DNA of 64,000 nt from a virus (Duplodnaviria; Caudoviricetes), in IMG/VR virus record IMGVR_UViG_3300025679_000005; one strand, given 5' to 3'. Under the pieces are notes generated by a model. It worked only from the letters and a program-made list of their open reading frames with translations, ran no database searches and was not told the origin of the DNA. A program made the translations under genes and the position numbers. Each line of letters opens with the position of its first letter. The stretch's first letter is position 1. Below are positions 5,501 through 57,300 of the stretch, in pieces.

Positions 5501-5875
5501 TATTTCCGTGATAAAGCGGTGACGCGCCTCAGACTCACGAAGACGGTCTACGAGGTCCGCATGCTCAGATCGTAGCCTTTTATCCCGATCTTTGGCTTCG
5601 AAGCGCTCCACCGGATCGGTGTACTCTTCTTCGTCCTCCTCCTCTTCTTCAGGAGAGCGCAAGTATTCCGAGGGCGGCTTCAAGTTGAAGCGCTCGAACG
5701 ACTTGAGCAGAGAAGATCGGGAAATGTCCTCTTGAAGGACCCGGCCTATTTCTACGAGGGCTTCTTGAACGGTGTCGTATTTACCGCTCTCCAAAATCCT
5801 CTGGGCAGTCTTTACTCGCTTGTCGTTCCATTCCATGGATGAGGCACCTTCCGTCTCAGCGTACTGAGCAATCAA
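2585..5875 (-). CDS. Calcineurin-like metallophosphoesterase interrupted by two inteins (about 423 aa after splicing)
   Basis: Extein motifs SDWH, GGDLITG, GNHG, HHGD, GHFHQ. Confidence 0.8.
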   Translation of the reverse strand: MIAQYAETEGASSMEWNDKRVKTAQRILESGKYDTVQEALVEIGRVLQEDISRSSLLKSFERFNLKPPSEYLRSPEEEEEDEEEYTDPVERFEAKDRDKRLRSEHADLVDRLRESEARHRFITEIDRPINIPKIKRRETKSGIREGTAVIMASDWHVEENVYAEAVAGRNSYNPKIAEARAERFFTGIEWLLDFGRNEFSLRDVILWLGGDLITGYIHDELEEDNDLSPIEAVLFAKRLITKGIKTLLLDPKIETITIPCSFGNHGRCHDDQTELLTVDGWKKYTQIAVGDIVATYNMDTSQTEWQPLEDVYVAEYQGPMVKVKTTTADFMVTPHHRMVVRSGSAGRDRFLEIQELAKRGTFGANGFPKCSLGHTKEYTKVSDDELRLLGWIMTDGSYATLPNGKRSLRIYQSKKNGIAVLTALLNRLGVKYSAHTRTRKKAVILGKTVKRILPDTTFHIEVDSGRKFIELLPNKRAVSGWMYQLSERQFGCFLEGLLGGDGSVRPPRNVRDEERVIYGDSDVLGSIQTLAVTNGIAARVRQDNRGNHILSLPASRQGFPKKALKTVPYSGVIWCGTVKNGTLITRRNGVPLVSGNTTAKRRIKTGAKNSYEWLLYNVLQQDFADEKRVRFVVDKSAHQYVEAYEFDLHFHHGDEVKFGGGIGGLSVPLNKRVFKWDGVKRADYHHIGHFHQLTDLGRTVVNGCFPAGTLVTIPGGVLPIEDVQVGTPVISRDGTHQTVEAHLERDAESLIDLGIKGFYKSLQCTPNHQIWAMKGSDITCVCTTHGYHKDPVVEAPKWIAAEFLSAGDWVHIPHLTGESTKSIGTDLAWVYGLFLAEGHTTIDGGFDRKHHRLTWTMHIRELPILERVKTILDPIMNNPGVLSVRESRNTSCVTFSCGREVALDWRNSFGHKSIGKKLPNWAYSLPVEERVALVKGWIDGDGHQRITKDGNLYLTATSISQQLAWGMFMLANGTHYEPTVKSLRPGGRRKNTAYSVLFNQGQDVKWVAGEKFVRICHRRMVPGDIKVYDLQVSGEHTFIANGVGVHNSLIGYSEYAMSIGADYEPPQQAMYILDSKRGKCMNTPLWVDEASPLKRK
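2735..3766 (-). mobile_element. Intein 2 (344 aa) with LAGLIDADG-type homing endonuclease
   Basis: Starts CFPAGT; block B CTPNHQ; YGLFLAEGH and VKGWIDGDGH; ends VYDLQV...GVHN followed by S. Confidence 0.9.
4088..5074 (-). mobile_element. Intein 1 (329 aa) with LAGLIDADG-type homing endonuclease
   Basis: Starts CHDDQTELLT after GNHGR; block B VTPHHR; LLGWIMTDGS and LEGLLGGDGS; ends SGN followed by T. Confidence 0.85.
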
Positions 5876-23938: not shown

Positions 23939-25197
23939 CGCATAGCTTTTGCTCAAAAAGCCATTTTGTGCTAAACTTAGCTCGATGATCCGCTCTTACC
24001 GATACCCACTGCACCCCACGAAGAATCAGGAGGCGACTTTGACCTCCTGGCTCCTAGCATGCGGTAGTCTGTACAACGGAGCATTAGAAGAGAAGAAATC
24101 CTCGTGGGCAAAGCTCAAAAAAGGCGTTTCCTGTTACGAGCAGTATAGGTCTCTGACCATCATTCGTTCTCAGGACCCTGAATTCGGAGCGATACCCGCA
24201 ACTATCCTTCGATCTGCTCTCAAACGACTTGAACGATCCTTCGACGGATTCTTCCGTCGCGTGAAATCTGGAGAGGCCCCTGGTTATCCACGGTTTCGTA
24301 GTCAAAAGCGATATGACTCATTCTCATTGATGGGCTGTTTCTATTCTGGAGTCATTGTCGATAAAGCCAGAGGCTCCTCAGCTCAGGTCAAAATCCCCAA
24401 GCTTGGCCTCGTGAAGTTCAACCAGTACCGACCTCACAAGGGTGAGGTCAAAGACATCCTAGTCAAGCGAGAGGCTGATCGATGGTTCGTGATCTTCCAG
24501 TGCGACCTCGGAGCGGCACCCAAGGTCGCGGCCGACCTCACGAAGTCTGTCGGCATTGATCTAGGGCTTACCCACTTCGCAACCCTCGATTCCGGTGAGA
24601 CGATCGAGAACCCTAGGTTCTTCAAGGCCGGACAAGACCTATTGGCTAGGCGGCAGCGTGCTCTAGGGCGTAAGCGCCGGGGCAGTGCCTCTATGAGACG
24701 TGCTAAGATCCTAGTCCAGCGGGCTCACGCTCACATCAAGAACCAGCGCCTAGACCACGCTAGGAAGCTCGCCAAGAGTCTTTTCGATCGCTTCGACGTG
24801 GTCTGCTATGAGGATCTTTCGATCCAGGACATGATCTCCGGACCTCCCAGAGACGGAAAGCCTAAGCTCAATCTAGCCAAATCAATCTCAGACGCTTCCT
24901 GGTCAATTACAATCCACTGCCTAAAATGCAAAGCGGAAGAAGCTGGCAAGATCGCAGTGGGGGTTGATCCAAGAGGAACCACACAGAGGTGTAGTGGGTG
25001 CGGGGAGATCGTCCGTAAGGACCTTTCTATGCGCATTCATGATTGCCCCGCATGTGGTCTCATCATGGATCGTGACCAGAATGCAGGATGTAACATCAAA
25101 GCGCTCGGTTTGAGCGCGGTCTTGGGGATGAAGTCCCAGCCGAAGTTCATAGTCAGGGCAGCTTAAAATGAGCCGTCAAGACTTTTTGGGTAAAACC
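23936..25197 (+). mobile_element. Non-autonomous tnpB-only IS element, copy 1
   Basis: Left and right ends shared with copy 2; preceded by ATGGGC; right end ATGAGCCGTCAAGACTTTTTGGGTAAAACC. Confidence 0.75.
23985..25166 (+). CDS. tnpB: RNA-guided endonuclease TnpB
   Basis: RSYRYPLHPT N-terminus; RuvC GIDLG, YEDL, DRDQNA; zinc finger CSGCG and CPACG. Confidence 0.93.
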   Translation: MIRSYRYPLHPTKNQEATLTSWLLACGSLYNGALEEKKSSWAKLKKGVSCYEQYRSLTIIRSQDPEFGAIPATILRSALKRLERSFDGFFRRVKSGEAPGYPRFRSQKRYDSFSLMGCFYSGVIVDKARGSSAQVKIPKLGLVKFNQYRPHKGEVKDILVKREADRWFVIFQCDLGAAPKVAADLTKSVGIDLGLTHFATLDSGETIENPRFFKAGQDLLARRQRALGRKRRGSASMRRAKILVQRAHAHIKNQRLDHARKLAKSLFDRFDVVCYEDLSIQDMISGPPRDGKPKLNLAKSISDASWSITIHCLKCKAEEAGKIAVGVDPRGTTQRCSGCGEIVRKDLSMRIHDCPACGLIMDRDQNAGCNIKALGLSAVLGMKSQPKFIVRAA

Positions 25198-33958: not shown

Positions 33959-36900
33959 CCTCAGAGGCTATTGGCTTCTGAGGTGAATTGAAACGTCTGC
34001 GTAGGTGCTCGTGGCGAGCGTGACCGATTCCGCCTCAGAGGCTATTGGCTTCTGAGGTGAATTGAAACGGGTTGTTCGCAAAACACAGCTAGACCGGCTC
34101 CGCCCCTCAGAGGCTATTGGCTTCTGAGGTGAATTGAAACAAGGAAGTTGAGCGGGACGCGGCCGATACCATGAAGCCTCAGAGGCTATTGGCTTCTGAG
34201 GTGAATTGAAACGTGTCAATCGCATCCAATTGCAGTTGGGCCTTGCTCCCTCAGAGGCTATTGGCTTCTGAGGTGAATTGAAACCGGCTGGATATCGGCC
34301 AATGCCTCGATGTCTCCAATCCTCAGAGGCTATTGGCTTCTGAGGTGAATTGAAACCAGAGCGGGGACACTGTCGCCTCGATTGCTACGGGGCCTCAGAG
34401 GCTATTGGCTTCTGAGGTGAATTGAAACGCCAGCACTACCGATCCAACCGCTTTGACGGTTAGGGCCCTCAGAGGCTATTGGCTTCTGAGGTGAATTGAA
34501 ACTACTGGGTGCGCGATCTTGAGCGCCTCCTAATCCAGCCTCAGAGGCTATTGGCTTCTGAGGTGAATTGAAACCTGGACGGCTATCAGCTCGCTCAAGC
34601 AGACCGAGCCAACCTCAGAGGCTATTGGCTTCTGAGGTGAATTGAAACTCCATGGACACGGCAATGTGTACTTGCCAGCCGTTGCCCCTCAGAGGCTATT
34701 GGCTTCTGAGGTGAATTGAAACCAAACCTATAGCGAGATCACAGCCGCTGTCAGGGCCCCTCAGAGGCTATTGGCTTCTGAGGTGAATTGAAACATCATG
34801 ACCTCTACATCGGGGCCTACAAATCCGTTGCCCCTCAGAGGCTATTGGCTTCTGAGGTGAATTGAAACGTTAGCCGGGGCTTGATTTGGGACGCAATGTC
34901 GGAGCCTCAGAGGCTATTGGCTTCTGAGGTGAATTGAAACAGCGTGAGCTTGTCGGGATGATCTAAGGCCCAACGCCTCAGAGGCTATTGGCTTCTGAGG
35001 TGAATTGAAACGAGACGGAAAGCCGTTTAACGATTTGATCCCCGCTCAGCCTCAGAGGCTATTGGCTTCTGAGGTGAATTGAAACCTACAGTCAGGACTG
35101 ACGTATAGGCGGGCTACCTCGACCTCAGAGGCTATTGGCTTCTGAGGTGAATTGAAACACCATCGAGAGGTTGACCCAGCGGTTTGGCTTGAGCCTCAGA
35201 GGCTATTGGCTTCTGAGGTGAATTGAAACAGGGTGGGGCAGGCGCACACCAGCTGCGTGCGCAGCCTCAGAGGCTATTGGCTTCTGAGGTGAATTGAAAC
35301 CAAAGCCCAAGAAAGCCAAGAGGAAGTAGTGGATTAGCCTCAGAGGCTATTGGCTTCTGAGGTGAATTGAAACGTCTGCAGCTCCTCGATTTTCTCTGAT
35401 GCGATCGATCCTCAGAGGCTATTGGCTTCTGAGGTGAATTGAAACAGGCGGGGAATGCCAAGTTGATCGCGCGGATCCAACCCCCTCAGAGGCTATTGGC
35501 TTCTGAGGTGAATTGAAACCATGGTGGGTTGCTTCGCCGGCCGTATGCTGGGGAGCCTCAGAGGCTATTGGCTTCTGAGGTGAATTGAAACGGGGCGTCA
35601 ACAGGGGACGGAACGAGAGTGAACGATTCCTCAGAGGCTATTGGCTTCTGAGGTGAATTGAAACTTGGTAACGTCGGTCGGCAGCTAGGCCGAACACACG
35701 GAGCCTCAGAGGCTATTGGCTTCTGAGGTGAATTGAAACTTGGCCTTTGAGGTCTTGGCCCTGTGCCTATCTTTGCCTCAGAGGCTATTGGCTTCTGAGG
35801 TGAATTGAAACAGCTACTATTTCCCGCTCTACATCCCAGCGGGCTCGACAGCCTCAGAGGCTATTGGCTTCTGAGGTGAATTGAAACTGGGGGATGCGTT
35901 TGGTCTTGGGCTTGCCCTTGGCATCCTCAGAGGCTATTGGCTTCTGAGGTGAATTGAAACCAAGAAGCGTTTGAACTTGATCGGATCCGCACTGTGCCTC
36001 AGAGGCTATTGGCTTCTGAGGTGAATTGAAACACTTACAACACGTTGCCGGAGACCTGGGAGAGCACCCTCAGAGGCTATTGGCTTCTGAGGTGAATTGA
36101 AACGCGGGGTTTGCGGGGGGCATACCCTCAGCGGCTGACCTCAGAGGCTATTGGCTTCTGAGGTGAATTGAAACCAAGAGCGTCGGGTCATGAATCTGCT
36201 CAAGAAGACATCCTCAGAGGCTATTGGCTTCTGAGGTGAATTGAAACGGCCAGCTTCGGAGCCGCTCTTGGATGTCCTCCGACCAAGCCTCAGAGGCTAT
36301 TGGCTTCTGAGGTGAATTGAAACGCTACGAGGATCCAGGCTAGCTGGCGAATGAACCACCTCAGAGGCTATTGGCTTCTGAGGTGAATTGAAACTAGGGC
36401 AGCCCCTGAGGGGACGGAGCATCCCGTGAGGCCTCAGAGGCTATTGGCTTCTGAGGTGAATTGAAACGCGAACTGCTTGGCCAAGGGAGCGACAGCCTGA
36501 GCGACCCTCAGAGGCTATTGGCTTCTGAGGTGAATTGAAACGAGCTGCAACTGAGCTGCCTGGGATGGCCCAGTAGAGCCTCAGAGGCTATTGGCTTCTG
36601 AGGTGAATTGAAACGACCAACGACCCTCGCCGAAGTGTCGGGACTTCCCGGCCTCAGAGGCTATTGGCTTCTGAGGTGAATTGAAACAGTCCTTGGCGTT
36701 GCCATTCGAGGCAGCCATCGACCCCTCAGAGGCTATTGGCTTCTGAGGTGAATTGAAACATGTAATATAATACGGTATGGAACCTACACACTTAACCTCA
36801 GAGGCTATTTGGCTTCTGATGTGAATTGAAACAAAGACCTCGACACTGGTGGTCGTCGTCGACCCTCAGAGGTCTCTGATCTCTGAGGTGCGTTGAAACG

Positions 36901-39599
36901 ATCGAAAGCGTGAGGTGCTATCAGAGGGTCTATGATCTCTGATCTCTGAGGTGGATTGAAACACACGGATTCGGACCTCATGCTCCGTGTTGACTTCCCT
37001 CAGGGTCATTGATCTCTGAGGTGAATTGAAACCTCCGAATGCTCACGCCGGCAGAGCGTCGTCATGGGGAGCCTCAGAGGTCTCTGATCTCTGAGGTGAA
37101 TTGAAACGAGACGATCCAGGTCGTGGTCGCCACGTGCGGACAAGCCCTCAGAGGTCTCTGATCTCTGAGGTGAATTGAAACGCTCACCTAGTGACCGAGG
37201 AAAAGAAGGTCGATGGCCTCAGAGGTCTCTGATCTCTGAGGTGAATTGAAACGATTCTGCCGCTCCCCCTAAGCGCTCATGTCGAGCGCCTCAGAAGGCT
37301 CTGATCTCTGAGGTGAGTTGAAACGATTCCCGTGTGCCCCGCTACGTCCAATCACGGACGCACCTCAGAGGTCTATGATCTCTGAGGTGAATTGAAACTG
37401 GTAAGAGCCGGTGGCGTATACCTCGAAGTCCGCACTCCTCTGATCTCTGAGGTGAATTGAAACAGGCAGGGGTCACAGAGCTTGCGACCGACCTTGACCT
37501 CAGAGGTCTATGATCTCTGAGGTGAATTGAAACACTTGCTTCGTGGTCATGCCAGGTCGGGGGACACTCAACCTCAGAGGTCTAGGATCTATGATCTCTG
37601 AGGTGAATTGAAACGAATGGGCACGTTGGAATGCACTAAGATGGTTGGCGGCCTCAGAGGCCTATGATCTCTGAAGGTGTATTGAAACAAGGCACTGCGA
37701 GTCTTTGACGCTTCCGCGAAGGCTGTCTCAGAGGTCTATGATCTCTGAGGTGAATTGAAACCTCACGAGCAACAAGAGGCCACGGGCGCAGCCCCGGCCT
37801 CTTTGGTCACTGATCCCGGAGGTGAGTTGAAACTTCAGGAGAACTCAGAGGCTATTGGCTTCTGAGTTGAGTTGAAATTCCTGCTGAATCGTGATGCCTG
37901 TAGCCTAAGTGAGTTGAAACAGCCGTAGCGAATAGCCATGTGAGTAGAGAGGCTACCTGAGGTCAATGATCTCAGAGTGAGTTGAAACGTCGTGATGGAG
38001 CGTGTGCACTCGACGGTCAGAGCCATCCTCTGAGGTCTTTAATCCCCGGAGGTGAATTGAAACGCCAGCGCGACCGTTACGAACGATGCCCGGAGGTCCC
38101 TCTGGGGTCTTTGATCCCGGAGGTGAGTTGAAACACAGACACTCTTGGGCTTTAACATCGTTCCTCAGAGGTCTATGATCTCTGAGGTGAATTGAAACAC
38201 TTCGGAGGCGGCCTTTGGAGGTCACATGTCTACTACCCTCAGAGGTCTATGATCTCTGAGGTGAGTTGAAACAGGGCGGCGCTTCGACAGATGCTCCAAG
38301 ACAACGCACCTCAGAGGTCGTTGATCTCAGAGGTGAATTGAAACGGAGTCTGCTGAAGCAGATCGTCAATAGCGATCTTGGTGCCTCAGAGGTCTCTGAT
38401 CTCTGAGGTGAGTTGAAACACGTGGAGCGGCAGGCCAGCTAGGCTTCTCCGGATCCCTCAGAGGTCTCTGATCCCTGAGGTGAATTGAAACCAGGTACGG
38501 CCAACGTACCCCTTGGCGTGGGACTTCTGAGGTCTCTGATCTTAGAAGTGAATTGAAACATGAAGCCCAGCTCGTCCAGCGCCTTGATGTGCGGGGCCTC
38601 AGAGGTTCTGAGGTGAGTTGAAACGACTCCATCAGTGGACGCTGCGTCCACGCCGGATCCTCTGTGGTGTCATTGATCTCAGAGGTGGATTGAAACCAGG
38701 CCGCTCAGCGGTGTACCTATAGAGGTCTGAGGTCGGGGATCTCGTGAATTGAAACCTGAGCCAACCTCGTTGGACTGCTGGGTATCGAAGGCTTCTGAGA
38801 TCAATGATCTCAGAAGTGAGTTGAAACGCGAGCTGCTCTCACCGTGTCTGACAACCCCGCGGATCCTCTGGCTCACAGAGGTGAGTTGAAACATCAGAAC
38901 TGGCCTGCGAAGGTCGAAGGTCGTCTAGTCCTCTGGGGTCATTGATCCTGGAGGTGAGTTGAAACGTCTGGTCGGAACCCTATAGTGATCGTCAGAATTG
39001 GCCTCCAGGGTCTTTGGATCCTGGAGGTGAGTTGAAACATCGACGACGGCCCGGGAATGCTACCAGATGGCAACCTCAGAGGTCTCTGATCTCTGAGGTG
39101 AATTGAAACGCCGTGGTGGGCGCGTAGTCGCCAGCCTTGATCAAACCTCAGTGGTCTCTGATCTCTGAGGTGGATTGAAACGTTGGGGTGCGATGGGCTG
39201 CATCGGTCCTCAGAGGTCTATGATCTCTGAGGTGAATTGAAACCTCTGAGCTGAGCCGTACGGGTGCAAACCGATCCACTCCTCAGAGGTCTATGATCTC
39301 TGAGGTGAATTGAAACGCGGGTCAGGAATCCGTAGAACAAGCGCTCCAGGAGCGGCCTCAGAGGTCTCTGAGGTGAATTGAAACAACGGTCTGGTGTGGG
39401 ACTGCAAACCGCGGGTGGCTGCCTCAGAGGTCTCTGATCTCTGAGGTGAATTGAAACGTGAGCGAACACAAAGTGCTCTCAACCGCGACCGAACACCTCA
39501 GAGGTCTAGGATCTCTGAGGTGAATTGAAACAGAGGTAGTCGGCAGAGAAGATAGAATTCGGCTTCAGGGCCGACTTTCTTCCTGAAGTGTATTGAAAT
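33959..39599 (+). CRISPR. Type I-C-like CRISPR array, about 80 repeats: 40 near-identical (33959-36832) then about 40 degenerate (36864-39599)
   Basis: 36-nt repeat CCTCAGAGGCTATTGGCTTCTGAGGTGAATTGAAAC (hairpin plus 11-nt tail); distal consensus CCTCAGAGGTCT(C/A)TGATCTCTGAGGTGA(A/G)TTGAAAC; spacers mostly 34-40 nt. Confidence 0.98.
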
Positions 39600-39710: not shown

Positions 39711-40352
39711 ATGGTCGAAATCAAAAGCAAAATGTACAACATCGAGATGCGAGGCCGCTTGGCCTGCTTCACAGCCGTCGAATCGAAGATCGAGCGGGTC
39801 TCGTACCCCATCCCCACCCCCTCAGCAGTAGAGGGCGCCTTGAGTGGCGTCATGGGGAAGCACGAGATCCAATGGCACTTGTCCCAGTGCCGCGTGCTCT
39901 CCAAGATCAGGCATACGCCCGTTCGTCGCAATGAGCTGAAGGAGTTCGGCAACAATCCTGTCTACATTGAGAACAACCGCGCCCAACGCACCACCCTGTA
40001 CCTGAAGGACGTGCACTACGTGTTCTCGGTCTTCATGACGATTCGGCCCGATGCCTTCACCAGGGACATCGTCAAGTACGAGTCCATGTTCGAACGTCGC
40101 ATGGAAGGCGGGCAGTTCGAATACTACCCGTATTTCGGCTTACGGGAACTCGCGGTCAGTCGTTACGCTTTGGTGGACGACCTGAGCCAGTTCACGCCTA
40201 TCCCGTTCTCACAGAACTTCGGTCGGATGTTCTACGGCCACCAGTATCGTGATCGTCGAGTCGTTTCCAGTAAGTTCTGGGAAGCCAAAATCGTCAGAGG
40301 CATCGTCAACTACCCATCGCGAGATGAGATCTTCGGAGAAATTGAAACATGA
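39711..40352 (+). CDS. cas5: Type I-C Cas5 (Cas5d)
   Basis: ACFT...KIERVSYPIPTPSA, RRNE, LKDVHY, MFERR..GGQ...PYFGLRE. Confidence 0.92.
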   Translation: MVEIKSKMYNIEMRGRLACFTAVESKIERVSYPIPTPSAVEGALSGVMGKHEIQWHLSQCRVLSKIRHTPVRRNELKEFGNNPVYIENNRAQRTTLYLKDVHYVFSVFMTIRPDAFTRDIVKYESMFERRMEGGQFEYYPYFGLRELAVSRYALVDDLSQFTPIPFSQNFGRMFYGHQYRDRRVVSSKFWEAKIVRGIVNYPSRDEIFGEIET

Positions 40353-42154
40353 GCCAGTTACTCAGCAGCCTATACAGTTACGCGGTGGCCCACTCTCTAG
40401 AGGCTCCGTCAGAAGAGCGCGACTTCCCGCTCAAGTTGGTCTTGAACGAGAGCGGCTTCGTTGGCCTGGAGATCCTGAACCAGGCACTATGCGTTCCACC
40501 ACAAGTCATGATGAGAGGTAACAAGACGAAGCCAAATTTGGGCTACGACAATATCAGCTACGTTTTGGGCATTGGCCTCGTAGAACGAGCAGAGCGCTTC
40601 CCAGCGTTCTGGAAGCACACAATCGAGCAGTTGACCCGGGCCGGGGCACCGGAAGGAGTCCTCACCGCTGTCAAAGCTTTCCAAGACACGCGGGAATCGT
40701 GGAGGGAAGCGGCCCTGGCCTGCACCAGAGCATTTACCGAGGCGGACCCGAAGTTGGTGTTCGAGGGCGGGGAGTGGGTTGTCATTGAAGTTCAAGGCCA
40801 CGGCTATCTGCACAATACTCCAGGTCTTAGGCAAGACATCGAAAATATTGATGTCTTCGAGACAACGGGGATTTGTGCCGTATCGGGAGTTGCCTGTAAC
40901 CCCACACGATTGCATCCCGCCATCAAAGGGGTGCTAAAGGATGCAGTACCACTGGTCTCTTACAACGGCACTGCATACGAATTTGAAGGTCTCGAACAAG
41001 GGGCTAACTTTCCCACCAGTGCGACCGTAGCCCAAGGGTACACGAACGCCCTGAACGACTTGCTGTTCTATGTCCCCGATCGCCCGGGGCGTCGCAAGAA
41101 CGGGATCAATCTTCCCAGTGGTGCCGTTCTGGTGCTGTGGTCCAACGACCCAGAGGTGGATGTACAGCCTCTCATTGATGTCCTGTACGCCTCCAACAAC
41201 AAGGAGGACCGCGAGGTCGTGTCCAGGACTTGGGCCGCTTTTGAAGCCCTCAAGGAGTCTGAGGCAGAGGTCCACGTCTTGCTACTAGTCGGATACAGGG
41301 GTCGGATCTCCATCAATCGTTGGACGACTGTCTCCCTCACGGAGCTGCTGGTCAACCTGCGTAGCTATCGTCAAGCCTTCGCCAAGTTCTCGGAGTTCCC
41401 CAGCATGTACGAGCTGCTGGAGAACCTCAGCTCGGAAAAGCCTCAGATGGAGAATCCGAAGAAATACCTGCCGAAGCAAATTCTGTCGGAGACCCTTAAG
41501 AGTTCCCTCTACGAGGCCGTACTGTTCGGGGAACCCATTCCAAAGTCTGTCTACCAGTACGCTGTCAACCGCATGGTGCGGAGCAACCCCAACTCATACC
41601 CCTCCGAGCACGGATGGTTCCGCCAAATGGCGATCCTAAATGCTTGGATCAGCTTGAATCAACAACAAAAGGACACAATGACTGAGCCCACAAATTCTGA
41701 CGGCCCCCAGGGCCCGCAACGTTGCAACTACATTCCGAAGGACGCCTCCCCTGCTTTTCATGAGGGGCGCTTCCTGGCATGCGCCGAAGAGTATCAGTAC
41801 ATCTATGCCGGCCAAAAACCTGGCACCACAGCAAAAGTCGGCACGCCATTTGGCAGCAAGCTGAGTGAATTCTCGACAAATACTACCCGTTCAAAAGTGG
41901 CCATCCAAAGTGTACTCGTGATTTTCCAGAGAGGGTGCTCTGGACCCAGCGCCAATGTGGTCAGGGAAGAGCTGGATGATGTGACGTTTCACCTGGCTCT
42001 GCATCAGACCCCTGGCCGGGCCACCCCCAAACAACGCCAGGACATCTGTCAAGGCTACTTCAGCGAAAAACTCTACCTTAAGGATCGCAAGGGGTACCGT
42101 GCCCCGCTTCCCCCCACAACTGATGGAGACGAGAACACCTCGTCATCCGTTTGA
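40349..42154 (+). CDS. cas8c: Type I-C Cas8c (Csd1), short variant
   Basis: LHPAIKGV...LVSYN...QGANFP...Y.NALNDLL; GRISI; C-terminal F..GRFLA..E..Q; position between cas5 and cas7. Confidence 0.82.
   Translation: MSQLLSSLYSYAVAHSLEAPSEERDFPLKLVLNESGFVGLEILNQALCVPPQVMMRGNKTKPNLGYDNISYVLGIGLVERAERFPAFWKHTIEQLTRAGAPEGVLTAVKAFQDTRESWREAALACTRAFTEADPKLVFEGGEWVVIEVQGHGYLHNTPGLRQDIENIDVFETTGICAVSGVACNPTRLHPAIKGVLKDAVPLVSYNGTAYEFEGLEQGANFPTSATVAQGYTNALNDLLFYVPDRPGRRKNGINLPSGAVLVLWSNDPEVDVQPLIDVLYASNNKEDREVVSRTWAAFEALKESEAEVHVLLLVGYRGRISINRWTTVSLTELLVNLRSYRQAFAKFSEFPSMYELLENLSSEKPQMENPKKYLPKQILSETLKSSLYEAVLFGEPIPKSVYQYAVNRMVRSNPNSYPSEHGWFRQMAILNAWISLNQQQKDTMTEPTNSDGPQGPQRCNYIPKDASPAFHEGRFLACAEEYQYIYAGQKPGTTAKVGTPFGSKLSEFSTNTTRSKVAIQSVLVIFQRGCSGPSANVVREELDDVTFHLALHQTPGRATPKQRQDICQGYFSEKLYLKDRKGYRAPLPPTTDGDENTSSSV
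41678..42154 (+). CDS. Probable internally translated Cas11 (small subunit) within cas8c
   Basis: In-frame ATG with upstream AAGGA just before the AFHEGRFLA domain. Confidence 0.55.
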   Translation: MTEPTNSDGPQGPQRCNYIPKDASPAFHEGRFLACAEEYQYIYAGQKPGTTAKVGTPFGSKLSEFSTNTTRSKVAIQSVLVIFQRGCSGPSANVVREELDDVTFHLALHQTPGRATPKQRQDICQGYFSEKLYLKDRKGYRAPLPPTTDGDENTSSSV

Positions 42155-43209: not shown

Positions 43210-45588
43210 ATGACTCGCTGTCTACCGTCTCGACACCAGCCCTCCGTGGGTGCGGTGCCTTTTTGTCTGCATACTCGATACTATCAGCCAGATGTCTTCA
43301 AGGAGCTGACAGAGCTAGTGCCCTCAGAGCCACAGGTGGCATTGCTGTTGCCTACAGGCAGCGGTAAGACAACGCTGATTCTGTCTTTCATCGCCTGGGT
43401 GTTCGAGCAGCCAAAGCCACCTTTCTCCGAAGTCTACGTCATCGCCCCTCAGAAGACCGTCCGCGATGGCTTCAAAGGCAATAAGGGGGAGAACCGTCAA
43501 TTCCAAGTCAATCCAGGAGAGGCCTGCTATGAGCTTGTGTCCGCAGAGGATCTGGATTCGAGGACTTCTCTGGACGAAACGGGGGATCTCGATACCAAGC
43601 TTTTAGAAGTGCCCAAACCTGGAACAAAAGTGTGGTTCGCAGAGACTCATGCCAAATTCGCACTTGAGAAGCTGCTCTGCAACTTGCAGAACCACTGCTG
43701 TACTGCTGACTTCCACGGCAAGCTATTGGTGGTGGATGAGGGGCACCACGCCAAGCTGGGCAACAACATCCGAGCCTTCATCGACTATTGGGTGGCCAAT
43801 GGTGGGCACGTACTGTACGCCACTGCCACTCCGGGAGACGGTATCCCTGAGACCGCCAAACTGATCCAACGCACTCTCACTGAGCTAATGGCGCCGCCAT
43901 ACGACCTCCCGCCGTGTGCCCCCACAAGGATCCTATCTAATTTCATCGATACGGGGTTGGCGGAGGACTCCGAGCAAGACGCTGATGGGACTCATTGTGC
44001 TCCTATCGGGACTGAGGCCGAGTTGCGCAATGTCTTCGAGGACATGGCCACTCGCTGGAATGACGCTGGTCGTCCCAAGACTATTGTCCGGATCAAGCCT
44101 AAGCAAGACACTCAGCACAACATCAAAATGCTTCTTATGGCCAAAAAAGCCTTTGAGGACGTAGGTGCGAGAGCTTTTGCCGTCAGAGCTGATGTCAACT
44201 TGAAAACAGGATCCGAAATCAAACGCATTGACGGCTTGATTTCCTCCGAGGACCTCTCAGAAAAGCTGGCTAAGGAGCGCCGTCGGTCGTATTCAGAATC
44301 CGAGTGCGACGTGATCATCACGCTCAACACAATGATTGAAGGTGCCGATTGGCCCCTTTGCAGTCATGTCTACTTGTGGGGCGTGCCCGGCAACTGTCAG
44401 ACCACTGTTCAGGTACTGGGGCGAGCCACTCGTCTAAGGACCGGTATCTCAGACTACCCGCAGCAATGGTGCGAGACCACTCAGATCGTGTTCTTTGTGG
44501 GTGGTGTCTCTGATCTTCGTAATACCCACGGCACTACCATGCTTTTGGTAGGGTGCTCACTAGCTAACTACACTCTAGGTGCTCAATGGTCTACGTTCCG
44601 AGAGCATTTGAAGCTGGTCAAGGAACACCCACAGATCTTGGAACCAGCTCGTGAAGAGGCAACGGCGGTCCCCGCGGAACGTGAGAGAGAGATCAGACTG
44701 GGTATTTCGGGGCTGTCAAAAACCATTGAAAAGTTCCAAAATACCAAGGAAAGGGTGGAGAACTCCGAAGTTCACGAGAGGCGCAAACGGATAATCGAGA
44801 AGCATCTGTCCACTCTTCCAGACGGACCCGAGCGCCGATTTGGCATAAGCTTTGCCCTAGGGGAGTATCCTGGGTATCAAGAGAAATACCGCAAAGCATT
44901 GAGGGGACGCCTTCAAACGGAGAGCTTCAGCGAGGCCCATAAGGCTGTCCTGGATGAACTCCTGGAGCACTTCCTGAACTCAACTGAGGTGCTCCCTAGA
45001 GCGGGGTCCCTAATGGACCTGGAGGATATGGGACTACTCCAGTTGACTGCCCCTGTTCTTGAGGGATTGAAGGACAAGATGCTTAAGGAGTGTCCTCCTA
45101 GGTTGTACCGGAGTAAAGTCATTAACAACACTCAGAGCTTCGTTATCTCGAATCCACACCTGTCCATTTCAGAATTGCTGGATCAACCGGACCCCGCAAG
45201 CCCTGACGGGTACACCTTCAGGGCATACGACGAGGCCATTCGAGCTGGCTCACGTGGCCTGGAGAGGCACGATGACGGCCTAGGCGGTATGGTCTGTGAG
45301 CGAAGCTCGTGGTCCAAGGAATGGGTGACATCAGCTCATCTGGACCAGCTAAAGGGTGGGACTAGTCAAAAGAGGTTCGCTTCAGAGTTTAAGAAACACC
45401 CTTTGGGGTTCTTTTTCGGGCCTCCTATCACCAATCTCCTGAAGGGTCTACCCTTGGATGTCTGTGCCCGTCTGACTGTCGGCGAAGCGGTCCGCATTGG
45501 TCGTTCAGAATGGACTAAGGAGCAATACGCCTCCTTTAAGGGCCGTCTTCAGCACATGACTGTGCAGGAGGCGCTAGATGGCGTCTAA
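43210..45588 (+). CDS. SF2 helicase with no HD nuclease domain
   Basis: LPTGSGKT, VVDEGHH, TATP, MIEGADWP, QVLGRATR; Walker A is only about 45 aa from the start. Confidence 0.85.
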   Translation: MTRCLPSRHQPSVGAVPFCLHTRYYQPDVFKELTELVPSEPQVALLLPTGSGKTTLILSFIAWVFEQPKPPFSEVYVIAPQKTVRDGFKGNKGENRQFQVNPGEACYELVSAEDLDSRTSLDETGDLDTKLLEVPKPGTKVWFAETHAKFALEKLLCNLQNHCCTADFHGKLLVVDEGHHAKLGNNIRAFIDYWVANGGHVLYATATPGDGIPETAKLIQRTLTELMAPPYDLPPCAPTRILSNFIDTGLAEDSEQDADGTHCAPIGTEAELRNVFEDMATRWNDAGRPKTIVRIKPKQDTQHNIKMLLMAKKAFEDVGARAFAVRADVNLKTGSEIKRIDGLISSEDLSEKLAKERRRSYSESECDVIITLNTMIEGADWPLCSHVYLWGVPGNCQTTVQVLGRATRLRTGISDYPQQWCETTQIVFFVGGVSDLRNTHGTTMLLVGCSLANYTLGAQWSTFREHLKLVKEHPQILEPAREEATAVPAEREREIRLGISGLSKTIEKFQNTKERVENSEVHERRKRIIEKHLSTLPDGPERRFGISFALGEYPGYQEKYRKALRGRLQTESFSEAHKAVLDELLEHFLNSTEVLPRAGSLMDLEDMGLLQLTAPVLEGLKDKMLKECPPRLYRSKVINNTQSFVISNPHLSISELLDQPDPASPDGYTFRAYDEAIRAGSRGLERHDDGLGGMVCERSSWSKEWVTSAHLDQLKGGTSQKRFASEFKKHPLGFFFGPPITNLLKGLPLDVCARLTVGEAVRIGRSEWTKEQYASFKGRLQHMTVQEALDGV

Positions 45589-46360
45589 CAATAGGGCTTC
45601 CAAGACAACTGCAAAGAGGCAGGATGACATCTCGGAGCACGACAACCCTGAGAAGCAGAAGTCCAGACAACGGAATTTGGATTTCTTGATCAAGTACGGT
45701 CAGGCTATCTGGGAAGACCACCCAGGCGGTATCCTCAAGCCCCATGTCATTGAATTGATCGGCAAATCCGGTCATCTGTCCTACGAAACCTTCAAGGGAC
45801 ATCTAGCGAATCCTGACCTCGATTTCATTGGTGTTGAGTGGGCTCGCGAGGTTTTCTATCATGCGTGGGACAAACTCGACACATCAGGCCAACCATACAA
45901 ATTTCCATTGGAGCGCGGTGAGATCAGTAAGTACCTTGTGTCCAATTGGAGCAAGAAACCGGCCAGCGTGATCATATGGGACTCTACAAATTCTATGGGC
46001 AACCGTAGATGGTGGTCCAGTCAGGGACGCCGGCTCCAAGAAGCTCTTAAGGGGCACTCCAAAGCTTTTGGGGAAGTCGCTCTCCTACTGACAATGAGCT
46101 TGAGAGGCCGCCTAGACACTCATCAAAAGCACGTTGAAAACCTAAAGATATTTCGGCAGAAGCTGATGGACATTTTCAGAGTGCCCGAAGGGGCCATCAT
46201 CAAAGACCACACAGTAGTAGAGGCCTCCAACCCACTGGGCGAATTCGAGAGTCTCGAATTCTACAAGGCCAAAAGTACCTCAATGGTGACTTTCAGAGCT
46301 ATCTACAGCGCAGACGGGCACCACCGTATGCGAGGCCTACCTTCAACGGAGATCAAATGA
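45578..46360 (+). CDS. Hypothetical protein, possibly a degenerate SAM-methyltransferase fold
   Basis: VIELIGKSG, FIGVE, VIIWDS; overlaps the helicase stop. Confidence 0.5.
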   Translation: MASNNRASKTTAKRQDDISEHDNPEKQKSRQRNLDFLIKYGQAIWEDHPGGILKPHVIELIGKSGHLSYETFKGHLANPDLDFIGVEWAREVFYHAWDKLDTSGQPYKFPLERGEISKYLVSNWSKKPASVIIWDSTNSMGNRRWWSSQGRRLQEALKGHSKAFGEVALLLTMSLRGRLDTHQKHVENLKIFRQKLMDIFRVPEGAIIKDHTVVEASNPLGEFESLEFYKAKSTSMVTFRAIYSADGHHRMRGLPSTEIK

Positions 46361-51726: not shown

Positions 51727-53148
51727 TCAGGGAGTCGTATCTTCGGCGTTTGAGGCTGTGCCAGTACTCTTTGCAGAGATTGCCCTGGTAGTAAGCCTAC
51801 GGCTAGAAGCTGCTAGCTCGGTAGTAGACCTTCCTGAGGAACTGTCCCCGGCCCGAAGGGCTAGGTATCGCTGACTCAGGAGGGTTTTCACTTCGGAGGG
51901 ATGATCATAGATCCCAATCTCTTTGTCCTCGGAACGTCCGAGCAGATTGCGACCTCCTACCACATCCGCATGAGAAATCCTGCCGCACCCACGGCATTGA
52001 AACTTGATCCCACTTCTGTTGGATCGTGAAACGTAGCCACAGGATGGGCACATCTGAGAAGTGTATGCCGGATTCACAACAATGACCGGAGCCTTGGTGG
52101 CTAACGACTTGTGCAGAGCCTTATAAGCGAATCGCTTTTGCCCCTTACAACCCCTGAGATCCAAGTCCTCGATGACGAACGCATGTCCTGGGTAGTCTCT
52201 AACGAGCGAGTTGGCAACGAACCCTGTGCTTGTTTTGATGAGACCGCTGAGGTGCTCTTCCAAGCGATCTAGGCGAGGAGAATTGATCCTCAATCCCTGA
52301 CGTTGCCTATTGGCTCTGAGGGTTTTGACCTTGGCATAAAGGGTATCGAACTTGGGCTTCAGATCAGCTCCGTAGATTCGACCGGCCGACGTAGCCGCGA
52401 TCACGTTGAGGCCGACATCCACTCCTACGCGAGGTGCTGACAGGTCAAGCTTAGGCTCCTCAATTAGCTTCTTCTCAAGGACTTCGACTCGCCATCGGCC
52501 CCGGCGGTCTTTGCGGATCATACAGCCATTGACGATCTCGTCAGGGGATTTGACGTGAGGGTTGGCGACGATCGGGACTTGGATCCTACGACCCTTCTTG
52601 AGATTGGAGAAGCCCAGCCACCAGGCACTGATTTTGGTATCATCGATCTTGCGGATGGCACTAGTATGCACCGAAAGGCGTATTCCAATTCGATCAGAGA
52701 TCGTGGGGGTCTTACCTACTAGGTCCTTGTCAAGAAGGAACGACCAGTACTGATCGAGAACTTCCTGAGAGATCAGGTCAGTGGCATGGTCGTAACTGTA
52801 TTTTCCGATAGTGAGAAGGGCGATTTTGGTCGATTCGGTGATCAAGCCCTCCTTAGCCAATCCCTTGATGTGTCGCTTGAGCTTCCTGACGTAGGTGGTT
52901 GTAACCCAAGCTGAAACAATCTCGATGGCATGCTGCTGGCAAGCCATTACAATGTTAGTGGAAAGAACCCTCTCCCTGGGAAAGAACCTGAGAAGTTCTC
53001 CTCTAGGAATCCCCATCCTCATGGACGAGATCATAGCTTCGACGCAAGCCTGGAGATACAGAAGGTATTCTACGTGAAGGGCTTCGAGCGCACGGATCTT
53101 CCCTGGGTTTGCTTGGGGGTGAAAGAAAAGGACTCGTGAGCGTTTCAC
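51727..53148 (-). CDS. tnpB: Divergent, longer TnpB/Cas12f-like RuvC nuclease
   Basis: GVDVG, IEDL, NPAYTSQMCPSCG, CRGCG..HADVVGGRNL. Confidence 0.85.
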   Translation of the reverse strand: MKRSRVLFFHPQANPGKIRALEALHVEYLLYLQACVEAMISSMRMGIPRGELLRFFPRERVLSTNIVMACQQHAIEIVSAWVTTTYVRKLKRHIKGLAKEGLITESTKIALLTIGKYSYDHATDLISQEVLDQYWSFLLDKDLVGKTPTISDRIGIRLSVHTSAIRKIDDTKISAWWLGFSNLKKGRRIQVPIVANPHVKSPDEIVNGCMIRKDRRGRWRVEVLEKKLIEEPKLDLSAPRVGVDVGLNVIAATSAGRIYGADLKPKFDTLYAKVKTLRANRQRQGLRINSPRLDRLEEHLSGLIKTSTGFVANSLVRDYPGHAFVIEDLDLRGCKGQKRFAYKALHKSLATKAPVIVVNPAYTSQMCPSCGYVSRSNRSGIKFQCRGCGRISHADVVGGRNLLGRSEDKEIGIYDHPSEVKTLLSQRYLALRAGDSSSGRSTTELAASSRRLTTRAISAKSTGTASNAEDTTP

Positions 53149-54216: not shown

Positions 54217-54307
54217 ATTCTCCGGCCTGGTGTATATGACCCAGCAACACCCGCTCAGGGGTTCCAATACTGTGACCAGATCCCAGAGCTATTGCTCTGC
54301 AAGTTCC

Positions 54308-57300
54308 TCAGTCATCATCATTGATCAGAGCCCACAGCTGCCGACCAATGCTCATCCCCGACAGATGTTGGCTCCCCACACCCGCCGAGGCCAGCATGCT
54401 CTCATTGTCGAGCCCGTCAGTCGATATCGAGATCTCGACTTTACGCATGAGCAACTCGTACATCTGCTCTTGTAGGGTGTCCTTGAAGACAGCGAAGTGG
54501 ATGCGGGTGTCCTTCTTCTGACCAATACGGTCTACTCGACCGACTGCCTGCCGGAACATGATCGGGCTACACATCGGGTTCTCCATCCACAATTCTGTGG
54601 AGAAGTGGACCAACGAATTCAAACCCGTGCTCACGGAGGCGGGGTTGACAATCAATACCCGGGAATTCTTCTTGACTACGTGCTGCTCTATCCACGTTTG
54701 GCGCTTACTCGTGGGGACGCGGTCAGCATAAAGGATCGGGGCCTTCACCCCTAGGCGCTCCTCAATGAGGCGGGCAATCCTAGGAAGCAACGTCGTGTGC
54801 CAAGCAAAGACCATGGCATTGCGACCCTCGGCCAGTTCCGCCTTGAGGGTGTCGAGCATCCACTGCTCCTTGGCAGAGACCTCGGAAGCTGAGAACTGCT
54901 TACCAGTCGCCACGATCCCAGCGCCCACGGACTCGGGATACCGGATCTCGTAGGTCCCGTCATCGTTATTGCCAGTGTCCGCCGTTGATCGATCCAAGTA
55001 GCTGGGCAGCTCTGACAGCTGGCCGAACAGCTTCCCCGACAGGTCCGGATCGAAGCGATCCTTCTTGATCTGATCCCTCAATGAGGCCAGAAGGGATTTG
55101 TAGCTGCCCAGTAGCTCGGAATCAGCTTCCACCACATGCTTCGTGACAGTGCAGGGCGGGATGTCAATGGCTAGGTCTGCCTTGTGCAAGGTCACAGACA
55201 CGGGCAGGAGGTGCCGGAACAAGAACAGGGGGAGAATGCCAGGGGCATCTCCGGCTGTGCGTTCGCTTCGCTGCACACGATCGGACATGGCCCCGAAGGC
55301 TACGACCTCCCCAGACTCCTTATCCTTGTCAGAAATGATTCGCTTCCGGTAGCCGTAGCGGTCAATGAACCGTTGGGCATCTTCCCTGGCGAACTCATGC
55401 CGGAAGTCCGGAGACAGCGCCCACATGTTCGTGTACAAGGACTTCGCGTAGCCGTTCATGACAGAGCCGGTCATGAACAGGGTGGGGATACCAAGGCCGG
55501 TTAGAGAATGGTAGGCTTGCGATTGAGCTGAGTCCGCATTAGCTGCCTCATGGCTTTCGTCTAAGCATATGAAGTCAAACAGATTCGGAGAGTATTTGGC
55601 GATGTGCTTCGCCAACGCCACTCGACGGGGTTCGGGTACCGCCTGGAACAAAGCCTCTCCGCATTCTGGGGTCAAGTAGATCTTACCACAAGCAATAAGC
55701 CCCGTAAGGATGGCCTCAGCAAGGTCTAGACTGTTGGCCTCCTTGGCATCTAGGGTCAAAACCCCGTCAGTCCACTTGAGCATCCCCAAATGGGTGTTGT
55801 GACCGTAGGACCTGGCCGCCTTGTAGTACATGTCCCAGCTCTGCCAATTGCTGGTCTCAAATAGTCCGGTCAGCTCCTTTTGGAGTTCCGTTCCCTCTTC
55901 AAGCAGGTAAACCAGGTTCTTCGCCATGTCCTTGATGTAGTATTCCTGGTGTTGGGACAGGATCCGAACATAGCGAGCAATTCGAGCAGGGTCGTAGGCG
56001 GCCATCAACAGCTTGGCGAACAGCTTGGGCAGCTCACCTTCGTTGGTCGAGTTGAGCATCATCTTGGCGAACACGAGATCGGTCATGTGCTCGACGTTGG
56101 CTGGCTGGAACACCCACTCGGGGCGTTCGTCTTTCGGAACCAGTGCGTTCTTGTCGAGGATCCTGTTCAAGTGCACCGTCCTCAGAATGCCCCGAAGGCG
56201 ATGACTCTCAGGGAGGTGCTCTAGAAGCTGCAAGCCGAACGAGTAGGCGGCTAGGCCCAGATCATCCTTGATCGAAATGTCTCTGTTCTCGCAACGAAGG
56301 CGCTTCTTGACGGCATCTTCCTTGGGCAGCTCACCGCCACACTTCGGGCAGCTCTTGGTAACGGCTTCCCAGCCATGGCCTAGCTTGGCCGTTTCCCGGG
56401 ACAGAATCGCCACCAGAAAGCGTTCCGCTGGAATGTCAGCCAATGCCTCGATGTCTCCAATGTCCTTCAAGACCCGCACCTCAGCGTCAGGAAACGTGGC
56501 CGAGGTCTCATTGGTCCAAGAGGTCAGAAGATGAGGCGGGCAAAGGACAAGCATTCTCTTGGCGATTGTCCTAGCGACCGTTAGTGCCAGGCAGCTCTTA
56601 CCACTGCCGATTTCGCCCAAAAGCTGGGCAGATCGATACTTTCTGTCCTTGGCCTTGTTCCCACCCAAAAGCATCACCAACGCCTTGGCTGAGTGCTCCT
56701 GAGCTTTGAAGAGTTTTCTCGCCGTTGGGGCCAAGGTCACCGAGTCCGCATCCCGCTTGGGATCGTACATGACAGGGCACTGTTGCTGCATAACCCCCAT
56801 GAGGCTAGGCCCGTAGTGCTTGAGCAAGTCCTCAATGGTCATTTTCTCGACATCGAGGACTTTCGACTCCCCACCGGATCCCAGGGTCGTGTACTTTTTG
56901 GTACTCAAGTCCAAGATCGTCGTAATCAGCTTCGGCTGCTGAACCTGAACAACCGAGGTCACATCCCCGTCCTTGTTTTTCTTCTCCTCGACGGTGACGA
57001 ACTCCCGATCGAACACTCCCTTGACCAAGAGGTCGGGGAGGCCTTCGGTTTCTGAAGATACCCGGCGACCATTGAACAGCCCTGAGGCGATCCCCGCGGC
57101 AATGTGGGCGGGCCTAGGGGGCGTAGCCAACTTGTACGTCCGGAACATCAGCTCTTCTACGGGAAGCTCAGGGATGATGTGAGGCACCGGGACGTAAGAG
57201 CCCAGGCGATTGCTTTGGGTCCAAGGACGAACCTTCTTCAATAGCCCAATGCGGTCGAAGGCCCGCATGCCCCAATCGGTCGTGTAGACGTTGCTCTGCG

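What the first reader, a model, noticed from the sequence alone, without database searches (positions are those of the whole stretch)
34285..34320. Spacer 5 targets a sister allele of the window's own methyltransferase-helicase gene
Seen: spacer CGGCTGGATATCGGCCAATGCCTCGATGTCTCCAAT versus 56426-56461 CGCTGGAATGTCAGCCAATGCCTCGATGTCTCCAAT: 30/36 identical, with the last 23 nt perfect. The site is directly preceded by TTC (56423-56425). Mismatches fall at positions 3, 4, 5, 7, 10 and 13. In the gene's frame the spacer reads IGDIEALADIQP and the gene reads IGDIEALADIPA, and three of the differences are synonymous. Known: TTC is the canonical I-C PAM, and the PAM-proximal seed governs binding. Inference: the array is aimed at a closely related competing phage while self is spared by seed mismatches. 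This also supports the array orientation and PAM.
Basis: partly seen in the sequence, partly recalled or inferred. Interest (0 to 1): 0.85.

Follow-up and report, generated by a model that had tools for sequence, protein, structure and literature searches.

The report
Phage CRISPR spacer resembling own gene
One guide in a huge phage's own CRISPR array is a near-copy of the phage's own methyltransferase-helicase gene but differs at exactly the bases that CRISPR recognition depends on, which fits a known pattern in which viruses carry guides against close relatives while sparing themselves; the relative itself could not be found.

Summary
Spacer 5 (34285-34320) matches 56426-56461 at 30/36 positions. 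The last 23 nt are exact, TTC lies directly 5' of the site, and the mismatches fall at positions 3, 4, 5, 7, 10 and 13. The match is in frame with a 1226-aa DUF6094 methyltransferase/SNF2-like helicase gene, and no shuffle reproduced it.

The array belongs to the type I-C variant already described in CasPhi-bearing huge phages: Cas5c-Cas8c-Cas7 plus a non-Cas3 helicase, with no cas1/2/4.

- No perfect protospacer or "sister allele" was found in IMG/VR, JGI metagenome contigs, GTDB genomes, GenBank phages, plasmids, 5.8 billion proteins or the one public run that holds this phage.
- The nearest homologue is 64% identical and differs completely at this site, so the source must be a much closer, unsampled relative.
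- Only 1 of about 65 usable spacers resembles any of 113 kb of the phage's own genome.
- The spacers average 59.5-60% G+C against 54.5% for the genome, so the array as a whole is not visibly aimed at a near-twin.

All six mismatches lie in the PAM-proximal 13 nt (P about 9e-4). This fits selection against self-targeting.

The closest precedent is virus-borne arrays with mutated orthologous self loci (Medvedeva 2019). I class this as a new member of a known kind, of moderate interest.

The parts
33959..39599 (+). CRISPR array of about 80 repeats. It holds 39 identical 36-nt repeats (33959-36759, 38 spacers of 35-40 nt), then about 40 degenerate repeats with a different loop. Every repeat ends in the handle TGAATTGAAAC.
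34285..34320 (+). Spacer 5 (36 nt), the fifth from the leader end. Its crRNA has the + strand sequence.
56423..56425 (+). TTC directly 5' of the look-alike site. This is the canonical type I-C PAM position on the non-target strand. It is the GAA (Glu) codon of the gene on the minus strand.
   Evidence: TTC as the I-C PAM: PMC5602111
56426..56461 (+). Near-protospacer in the phage's own gene: 30/36 identical, PAM-distal 23 nt exact, mismatches at positions 3, 4, 5, 7, 10 and 13.
54308..57988 (-). 1226-aa gene carrying the site at residues 510-521. It has an N-terminal DUF6094 methyltransferase and a C-terminal SNF2-like helicase. The family is widespread on contigs of 200-490 kb.
39711..40352 (+). 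Cas5c/Cas5d
   Evidence: Pfam PF09704; TIGR01876 at 98 bits, above its cut-off of 85
40349..42154 (+). Divergent Cas8c/Csd1
   Evidence: PF09709 at 157 bits; TIGR01863 at 139 bits, below its cut-off of 219; PADLOC Cas8c; no relative above 28% identity
42151..43131 (+). Cas7/Csd2
   Evidence: PF05107; TIGR02589 at 226 bits, above its cut-off of 182
43210..45588 (+). 792-aa SF2 helicase in the Cas3 position, with no HD nuclease and no Cas3 model hit.

Best explanation
Spacer 5 is a genuine spacer taken from a close, still unsampled homologue of the phage's own DUF6094 methyltransferase/SNF2-helicase gene. That homologue sits in a related phage or other mobile element. The array is transcribed on the + strand and is presumably cut by Cas5c, which leaves the 11-nt 5' handle. 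The crRNA is loaded into the phage's own Cas5c-Cas8c-Cas7 Cascade. This complex would bind a TTC-flanked perfect protospacer in the relative by pairing with the coding strand of that gene. It would then block or damage it through the associated helicase, possibly without a nuclease. The outcome would be exclusion of the relative from a co-infected cell. The resident copy escapes because six mismatches fall at paired positions in the PAM-proximal 13 nt, where type I Cascades need pairing to start an R-loop. Spacers that matched self better would have been lost, which explains why the mismatches cluster in the seed. Shown: the homology, frame, PAM-like flank, orientation, cas content and mismatch clustering. 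Inferred: the identity of the source, the route of acquisition (in trans or by recombination, since no cas1/2/4 lies within 143 kb), and the binding and interference outcomes.
For: The match is far above chance. It is in frame, with three consecutive synonymous differences followed by two replaced codons, which is the signature of a diverged coding homologue. The site is not conserved in the family: the nearest homologue (64.5% aa identity) reads LQDLDDLSTVPA there, and only 3 of 119 homologues come within 5 of 12 residues. The source must therefore be a much closer relative than anything sampled. TTC precedes the site on the side predicted by the orientation. All 6 mismatches lie in the first 13 of 36 positions (P = 8.8e-4), and synonymous third positions differ at 3/3 versus 0/7 (Fisher P = 0.008). 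The Cascade genes are intact. The system type has been described in CasPhi huge phages (PMC7162821). Precedent for virus-borne spacers whose orthologous self loci are mutated: PMC6858448.
Against: No perfect protospacer or closer allele was found anywhere. The phage is known from a single peat data set, and all three public copies are identical. No other spacer resembles 113 kb of the phage's own genome, and the spacers are G+C-richer than the genome, so a near-twin is not the array's main source. PAM and seed rules are assumed from canonical I-C/I-E systems, while this Cas8c is very divergent. No nuclease was identified. Another array in the same genome keeps a 39/40 self-match, so self-matching spacers are not always purged here.
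Confidence: 0.55

Rival explanations
1. Fossil of autoimmunity. The spacer was taken from this phage's own ancestor and matched it perfectly. The resident gene then escaped by seed-proximal changes or by replacement of a short tract.
For: The mismatches are confined to the seed-side 13 nt, while the adjacent 23 nt lack even synonymous change. No second allele exists in any data set.
Against: One PAM or seed change is normally enough to escape, yet the PAM is intact and there are 4-6 mutational events, including two amino-acid replacements. Tract replacement would itself need a sister allele. Purging of self-matching spacers explains the same clustering without any change in the gene.
Confidence: 0.18
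2. Captured array. The uniform 39-repeat block, including spacer 5, was obtained by recombination from a host or another element's I-C array. Spacer 5 would then record that genome's immunity against this phage lineage, and the present phage would be a non-matching variant.
For: There is no cas1/2/4 in 143 kb. The array is a mosaic of two repeat variants separated by an AT-rich pseudo-spacer, with a stray variant-A repeat inside block B. The spacers are G+C-richer than the phage. Recombination with host arrays has been proposed for leaderless phage mini-arrays (PMC6858448).
Against: No genome among 185,579 species representatives, and no IMG/VR contig, carries this repeat. Block A has its own upstream non-coding leader region and exactly fits the phage's own Cascade handle. 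This rival changes who acquired the spacer, not what it matches.
Confidence: 0.15
3. Self-regulation. The crRNA acts on the phage's own gene or mRNA through the 23-nt PAM-distal complementarity. The crRNA is antisense to the mRNA.
For: The crRNA has the template-strand sequence, so it can pair with the mRNA over 23 nt. The system lacks a recognisable nuclease. Al-Shayeb et al. raised hybridisation-type silencing as a possibility. Another array keeps a near-perfect self match.
Against: Known regulatory crRNA-like guides of type I systems pair at the PAM-proximal end, and here that end is mismatched. Nothing indicates that I-C Cascade targets RNA. The three synonymous differences point to divergence, not to a designed partial match.
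Confidence: 0.06
4. Chance resemblance.
For: None beyond the fact that a 23-nt exact run also occurs once between this gene and its 63%-identical homologue.
Against: 0 of 100 shuffles matched. The blastn-short E-value is 2e-8 within the window. The match is in frame.
Confidence: 0.01

Closest known systems
Virus-borne mini-CRISPR arrays of Sulfolobales portogloboviruses SPV1/SPV2 (Medvedeva et al. 2019, PMC6858448)
   Same: A virus carries spacers against close relatives. The orthologous locus in the carrier has point mutations or deletions that prevent self-targeting. The proposed role is heterotypic superinfection exclusion.
   Different: Those arrays hold 1-2 spacers, have no cas genes and rely on host Cas proteins, and the reciprocal targets were actually observed. 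Here there are about 80 repeats with the phage's own Cascade, and the target is not observed.
Type I-C variant of CasPhi-encoding huge phages (Al-Shayeb et al. 2020, PMC7162821)
   Same: Cas5d-like, Cas8c and Cas7, a helicase in place of Cas3, no Cas1/Cas2, and CasPhi elsewhere in the genome. A 761-aa protein with a Cas12f1-like TNB domain lies about 8-10 kb beyond the window end (L013). That paper also states that some phage spacers target other phages.
   Different: In the text I read, that paper does not report a near-self spacer or seed-clustered mismatches for this system. This array is far longer than the median of six repeats reported for phage arrays.
Type IV-A3 plasmid CRISPR-Cas (bioRxiv 10.1101/2023.06.23.546257; PMC11519345)
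   Same: Encoded on a mobile element, no adaptation module, a helicase (DinG) instead of a nuclease, used against competing elements, and spacers acquired in trans.
   Different: The Cascade lineage (Csf) and the helicase family are different. Here neither silencing nor trans-acquisition was tested.
Canonical type I-C CRISPR-Cas (for example Legionella, Rao et al. 2017, PMC5602111)
   Same: Cas5c/Cas8c/Cas7, hairpin repeats ending in ATTGAAAC, spacers of 33-37 nt (35-40 nt here) and a TTC PAM.
   Different: No Cas3 HD nuclease-helicase and no Cas1/2/4. The Cas8c is at most 28% identical to any known one.

Membership tests
Type I-C CRISPR-Cas | Cas5c (Cas5d) pre-crRNA endonuclease subunit | tested here: met
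   TIGR01876 at 98.3 bits, above its cut-off of 85; PF09704. Catalytic residues were not examined.
Type I-C CRISPR-Cas | Cas8c/Csd1 large subunit | tested here: met
   PF09709 at 157 bits, above its cut-off of 27; PADLOC Cas8c E = 6e-43. It is below the NCBIfam equivalog cut-off (139 against 219) and at most 28% identical to any relative.
Type I-C CRISPR-Cas | Cas7/Csd2 backbone subunit | tested here: met
   TIGR02589 at 225.6 bits, above its cut-off of 182.
Type I-C CRISPR-Cas | Cas3 HD nuclease-helicase | tested here: not met
   The 792-aa neighbour hits only ResIII and Helicase_C. There is no HD or Cas3 model in Pfam, NCBIfam, PADLOC or PDB sequences.
Type I-C CRISPR-Cas | Adaptation module Cas1-Cas2-Cas4 | tested here: not met
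   None was seen among the Pfam-scanned window ORFs or the precomputed Pfam labels of called genes across 143 kb. About 70% of the genome was not seen.
Type I-C CRISPR-Cas | Repeat with a 3' hairpin followed by an 11-nt handle ending in ATTGAAAC | tested here: met
   A 7-bp stem (CCTCAGA/TCTGAGG) is followed by TGAATTGAAAC in all 39 uniform repeats. This was read from the sequence and not folded.
Type I-C CRISPR-Cas | 5'-TTC PAM on the non-target strand | tested here: inconclusive
   TTC precedes the single near-self site. No true protospacer was found for any spacer.
Virus-borne spacers for heterotypic superinfection exclusion | The array is carried by a virus genome | tested here: met
   The contig is 464 kb and carries a CasPhi-sized (761-aa) protein with a Cas12f1-like TNB domain, PHROG tail-spike-like and exonuclease hits and many ORFans. 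It matches the description in PMC7162821. Capsid and terminase genes were not seen in the 143 kb read.
Virus-borne spacers for heterotypic superinfection exclusion | The spacer perfectly matches a closely related co-occurring virus | tested here: inconclusive
   No match was found in any collection or in the one public run. The data come from one sample at contig level, so absence is not shown.
Virus-borne spacers for heterotypic superinfection exclusion | The orthologous locus in the carrier is mutated so that self is not targeted | tested here: met
   Six mismatches, all within PAM-proximal positions 3-13. Non-binding is inferred from established type I seed rules and was not assayed.

The most novel reading that the evidence does not exclude
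The seed-confined mismatches are a natural footprint of self-avoidance. If so, the nuclease-less, helicase-coupled I-C variant of CasPhi huge phages is active in vivo on DNA, with a TTC PAM and a 5' seed. The phage would then use it, with spacers gained without its own Cas1/2, to exclude close relatives by hitting a clade-wide methyltransferase-helicase gene.
Probability: 0.3. Interest if true: 0.6.

Novelty: new member of a known kind. Interest (0 to 1): 0.4.

Why it matters
The function of the Cas3-less type I-C variant in CasPhi huge phages is unknown. This locus offers a natural matched pair: a spacer and a near-identical self site that differs only in the presumed seed. That pair gives a direct experiment (perfect target versus self target) for PAM, seed and mode of interference. 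If the exclusion reading holds, it extends virus-versus-virus CRISPR conflict with self-sparing mutations from tiny archaeal virus arrays to a huge phage with its own Cascade. As it stands, it is a single spacer whose real target is unobserved.

Tried and rejected
1. The exact 23-nt core shared by the spacer and the self site was absent from IMG/VR, JGI metagenome contigs and GTDB genomes. Even the phage itself is absent from those collections.

2. The whole array searched by blastn against GenBank phages and PLSDB plasmids at E <= 1 gave no match.

3. A protein search around the site gave the best non-self hit at 54-58% identity, and none carries the spacer's peptide. A 161-aa fragment query, meant to catch short contigs, also found nothing close.

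4. A degenerate back-translation of IGDIEALADI gave two hits in metagenome contigs. Both are unrelated genes with no tblastn similarity. There was no hit in viral contigs.

5. The SRA index found one run only, a peat metagenome that is probably the source. Laying its contigs on the gene at 80% likeness returned only the identical self contig.

6. Laying the same contigs on the spacer plus 12-nt flanks laid nothing, not even the array itself. This test is uninformative.

7. Relatives of Cas8c: none in IMG/VR, and none above 28% identity in the protein collection. No sister phage with this system could therefore be examined for reciprocal spacers.

8. The repeat pattern was absent from GTDB genomes and IMG/VR. 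No host or donor array was identified.

I walked the 464-kb ENA contig with seven further look-ups instead, one of which failed on a wrong start codon.

10. I looked for a nuclease in the helicase C-terminus and in the 260-aa neighbour. None was found. The 260-aa protein looks like a class I SAM methyltransferase fold.

11. I rejected similarity between the self-site flanks and the repeat, which would have suggested recombination rather than acquisition. By eye the flanks share about 5 of 10 bases, which is not meaningful.

Full report
**Observation**

Spacer 5 lies at 34285-34320 between two identical 36-nt repeats. On the same strand, 56426-56461 matches it at 30 of 36 positions without gaps. 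Positions 14-36 are exact, and the mismatches are at positions 3, 4, 5, 7, 10 and 13. TTC sits at 56423-56425.

The shared 23-mer occurs only at these two places. No dinucleotide-preserving shuffle of the window produced a match, even with three mismatches allowed. Across all spacers, the next-best ungapped match to the window is 0.68 identity, and shuffled spacers reach 0.67, against 0.83 here.

The site lies in a 1226-aa gene on the minus strand (54308-57988), at residues 510-521. In that frame the spacer encodes IGDIEALADIQP and the gene IGDIEALADIPA. The differences are three consecutive synonymous third-position changes followed by two altered codons. A gapped alignment (two substitutions plus a compensated one-base deletion/insertion) is equally possible.

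**Context**

The array runs from 33959 to 39599 on the + strand, with about 80 repeats.
- The first 39 repeats are identical.
- An AT-rich 36-nt pseudo-spacer follows.
- About 40 progressively degenerate repeats with a different loop come next.
- Each repeat is a 7-bp hairpin followed by TGAATTGAAAC, which is the I-C type 11-nt handle.

The handle, the degenerate far end and the downstream cas genes all give + strand transcription. That places the spacer's 5' end next to the PAM.

Downstream lie these genes:
- Cas5c, above the NCBIfam cut-off.
- A very divergent Cas8c.
- Cas7/Csd2, above the cut-off.
- A 792-aa SF2 helicase that hits no Cas3 or HD model in Pfam, NCBIfam, PADLOC or PDB sequences.

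No cas1, cas2 or cas4 appears in the window or in the 143 kb I eventually read.

The genome is a 464-kb contig from a peat metagenome. A CasPhi-sized (761-aa) protein with a Cas12f1-like TNB domain lies about 8-10 kb beyond the window end (L013). This is the architecture Al-Shayeb et al. 2020 described for two related huge phages: a type I-C variant without Cas1/Cas2, a helicase instead of Cas3, and CasPhi elsewhere (PMC7162821). The system itself is therefore known.

The gene carrying the look-alike site has an N-terminal DUF6094 methyltransferase and a C-terminal SNF2-like helicase. It has at least 189 homologues, many on contigs of 200-490 kb.

**Search for the sister allele**

None was found.
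- The 23-nt core is absent from IMG/VR, JGI metagenome contigs and GTDB genomes.
- The array finds nothing in GenBank phages or PLSDB plasmids.
- The best non-self protein is 54-58% identical around the site, and none encodes the spacer's peptide.
- A fragment query meant to catch short contigs also failed.
- A degenerate back-translated pattern gave only two unrelated chance hits.
- One public run holds the gene. At 80% likeness only the identical self contig lies on it.
- Laying contigs on the spacer itself returned nothing, not even the array, so that test says nothing.
- The three public copies of the locus are base-for-base identical and are not independent.

The closest retrievable homologue is 64.5% identical in protein and 63% in DNA. 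It reads LQDLDDLSTVPA at this position. The segment is therefore not a conserved motif, and the spacer's source must be far closer to this phage than anything sampled.

**Is the whole array aimed at a near-twin?**

I walked the ENA contig to add 26 kb downstream and 29 kb upstream. In 113 kb of non-array sequence, about 24% of the genome, only spacer 5 of about 65 usable spacers rises above chance.

The spacers average 59.5-60% G+C, against 54.4-54.6% for the phage (P = 6e-9). If the spacers came at random from a collinear near-twin, about 16 should have shown similarity.

One caveat applies. Spacers that match self well would be lost, so spacers from regions unique to a twin would be invisible to this test. 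The G+C shift nevertheless argues that most spacers come from other DNA. The general claim is not supported. The claim for spacer 5 alone stands as an inference.

**Mismatch pattern**

All six mismatches lie in the first 13 positions (P = 8.8e-4 for random placement). Synonymous third positions differ at 3 of 3 codons there, against 0 of 7 in the exact part (Fisher P = 0.008). None falls on position 6 or 12, which type I Cascades flip out (established knowledge of I-E/I-C Cascade structure).

Either a spacer filter (only spacers harmless to self persist) or escape by the gene would produce this pattern. Both imply that the system discriminates through a PAM-proximal seed, and hence that it is active. 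I favour the filter:
- The PAM is intact.
- Four to six events are more than escape needs.
- The synonymous changes look like ordinary divergence.

**Mechanism (inferred)**

The crRNA has the + strand sequence, so Cascade would pair with the coding strand of the relative's gene next to TTC. With no nuclease detected, the outcome may be helicase-dependent blocking, as in type IV-A, rather than degradation.

How spacers enter without Cas1/2 is unknown. No genome or viral contig with this repeat was found. The mosaic array is compatible both with acquisition in trans and with recombination.

**Comparison with known systems and verdict**

The closest precedent is Medvedeva et al. 2019. [quoted passage not shown] Al-Shayeb et al. 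2020 had already noted phage spacers against other phages.

The finding is therefore a new instance of a known kind, in a different and poorly understood effector system, and its key partner has not been observed. Interest is moderate, at 0.4. Its practical value is that it supplies a natural perfect-versus-self target pair for testing the I-C variant.

Noticed in passing
L014:6695-6734 (spacer) and L014:7248-7286 (target). These correspond to 83201-83240 and 82649-82687 in extended window coordinates, 18.6-19.2 kb beyond the window end.: A third array (7 identical 36-nt repeats, 82875-83351) has a spacer that matches a neighbouring 140-aa gene about 550 bp away for 39 consecutive nt on the same strand. 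This is a near-perfect self match in the same phage genome.
   Followed up: partly
window 36760-36795: The 'spacer' between the uniform repeat block and the degenerate block is AT-rich, unlike all the others, and contains TATAAT. It may be a remnant leader or an internal promoter that marks a junction between two fused arrays.
   Followed up: no
window 37843-37878: A degenerate copy of the variant-A repeat sits in the middle of the variant-B block, followed by short irregular units. This suggests the array was built from several pieces.
   Followed up: no
window 54245-54277: A solitary repeat-like unit lies about 30 nt beyond the stop codon of the MTase-helicase gene. It matches the repeats of another array at about 64.9-66.5 kb (minus strand) and a further solitary copy about 4.2 kb upstream of the window start.
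   Followed up: partly
window 33995-39562 (all spacers): The spacers average 59.5-60% G+C, against 54.5% for 143 kb of the phage genome (t-test P = 6e-9). This suggests most spacers come from DNA richer in G+C than this phage.
   Followed up: partly
window 5853-5860, and 70142, 74609-74653 and 78432-78481 in extended coordinates: Fragments of the repeat of the array at about 71.0-72.1 kb, which lies next to the CasPhi-sized gene, are scattered as solitary copies. One lies at the start of the intein-bearing exonuclease gene.
   Followed up: no
window 2585-5875 (-): A 1096-aa exonuclease-like gene (PHROG 284/704) is interrupted by at least two Hint/LAGLIDADG intein-like segments.
   Followed up: no
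window 45578-46360 (+): The 260-aa gene that overlaps the end of the helicase gene has no Pfam hit. Its Atlas model aligns with class I SAM methyltransferases at TM about 0.6.
   Followed up: partly
window 23949-25166 (+), 51727-53148 (-), 62463-63677 (-): Three TnpB/Cas12f-like genes lie in one 64-kb window, and more lie in the flanks (L015, L017).
   Followed up: no
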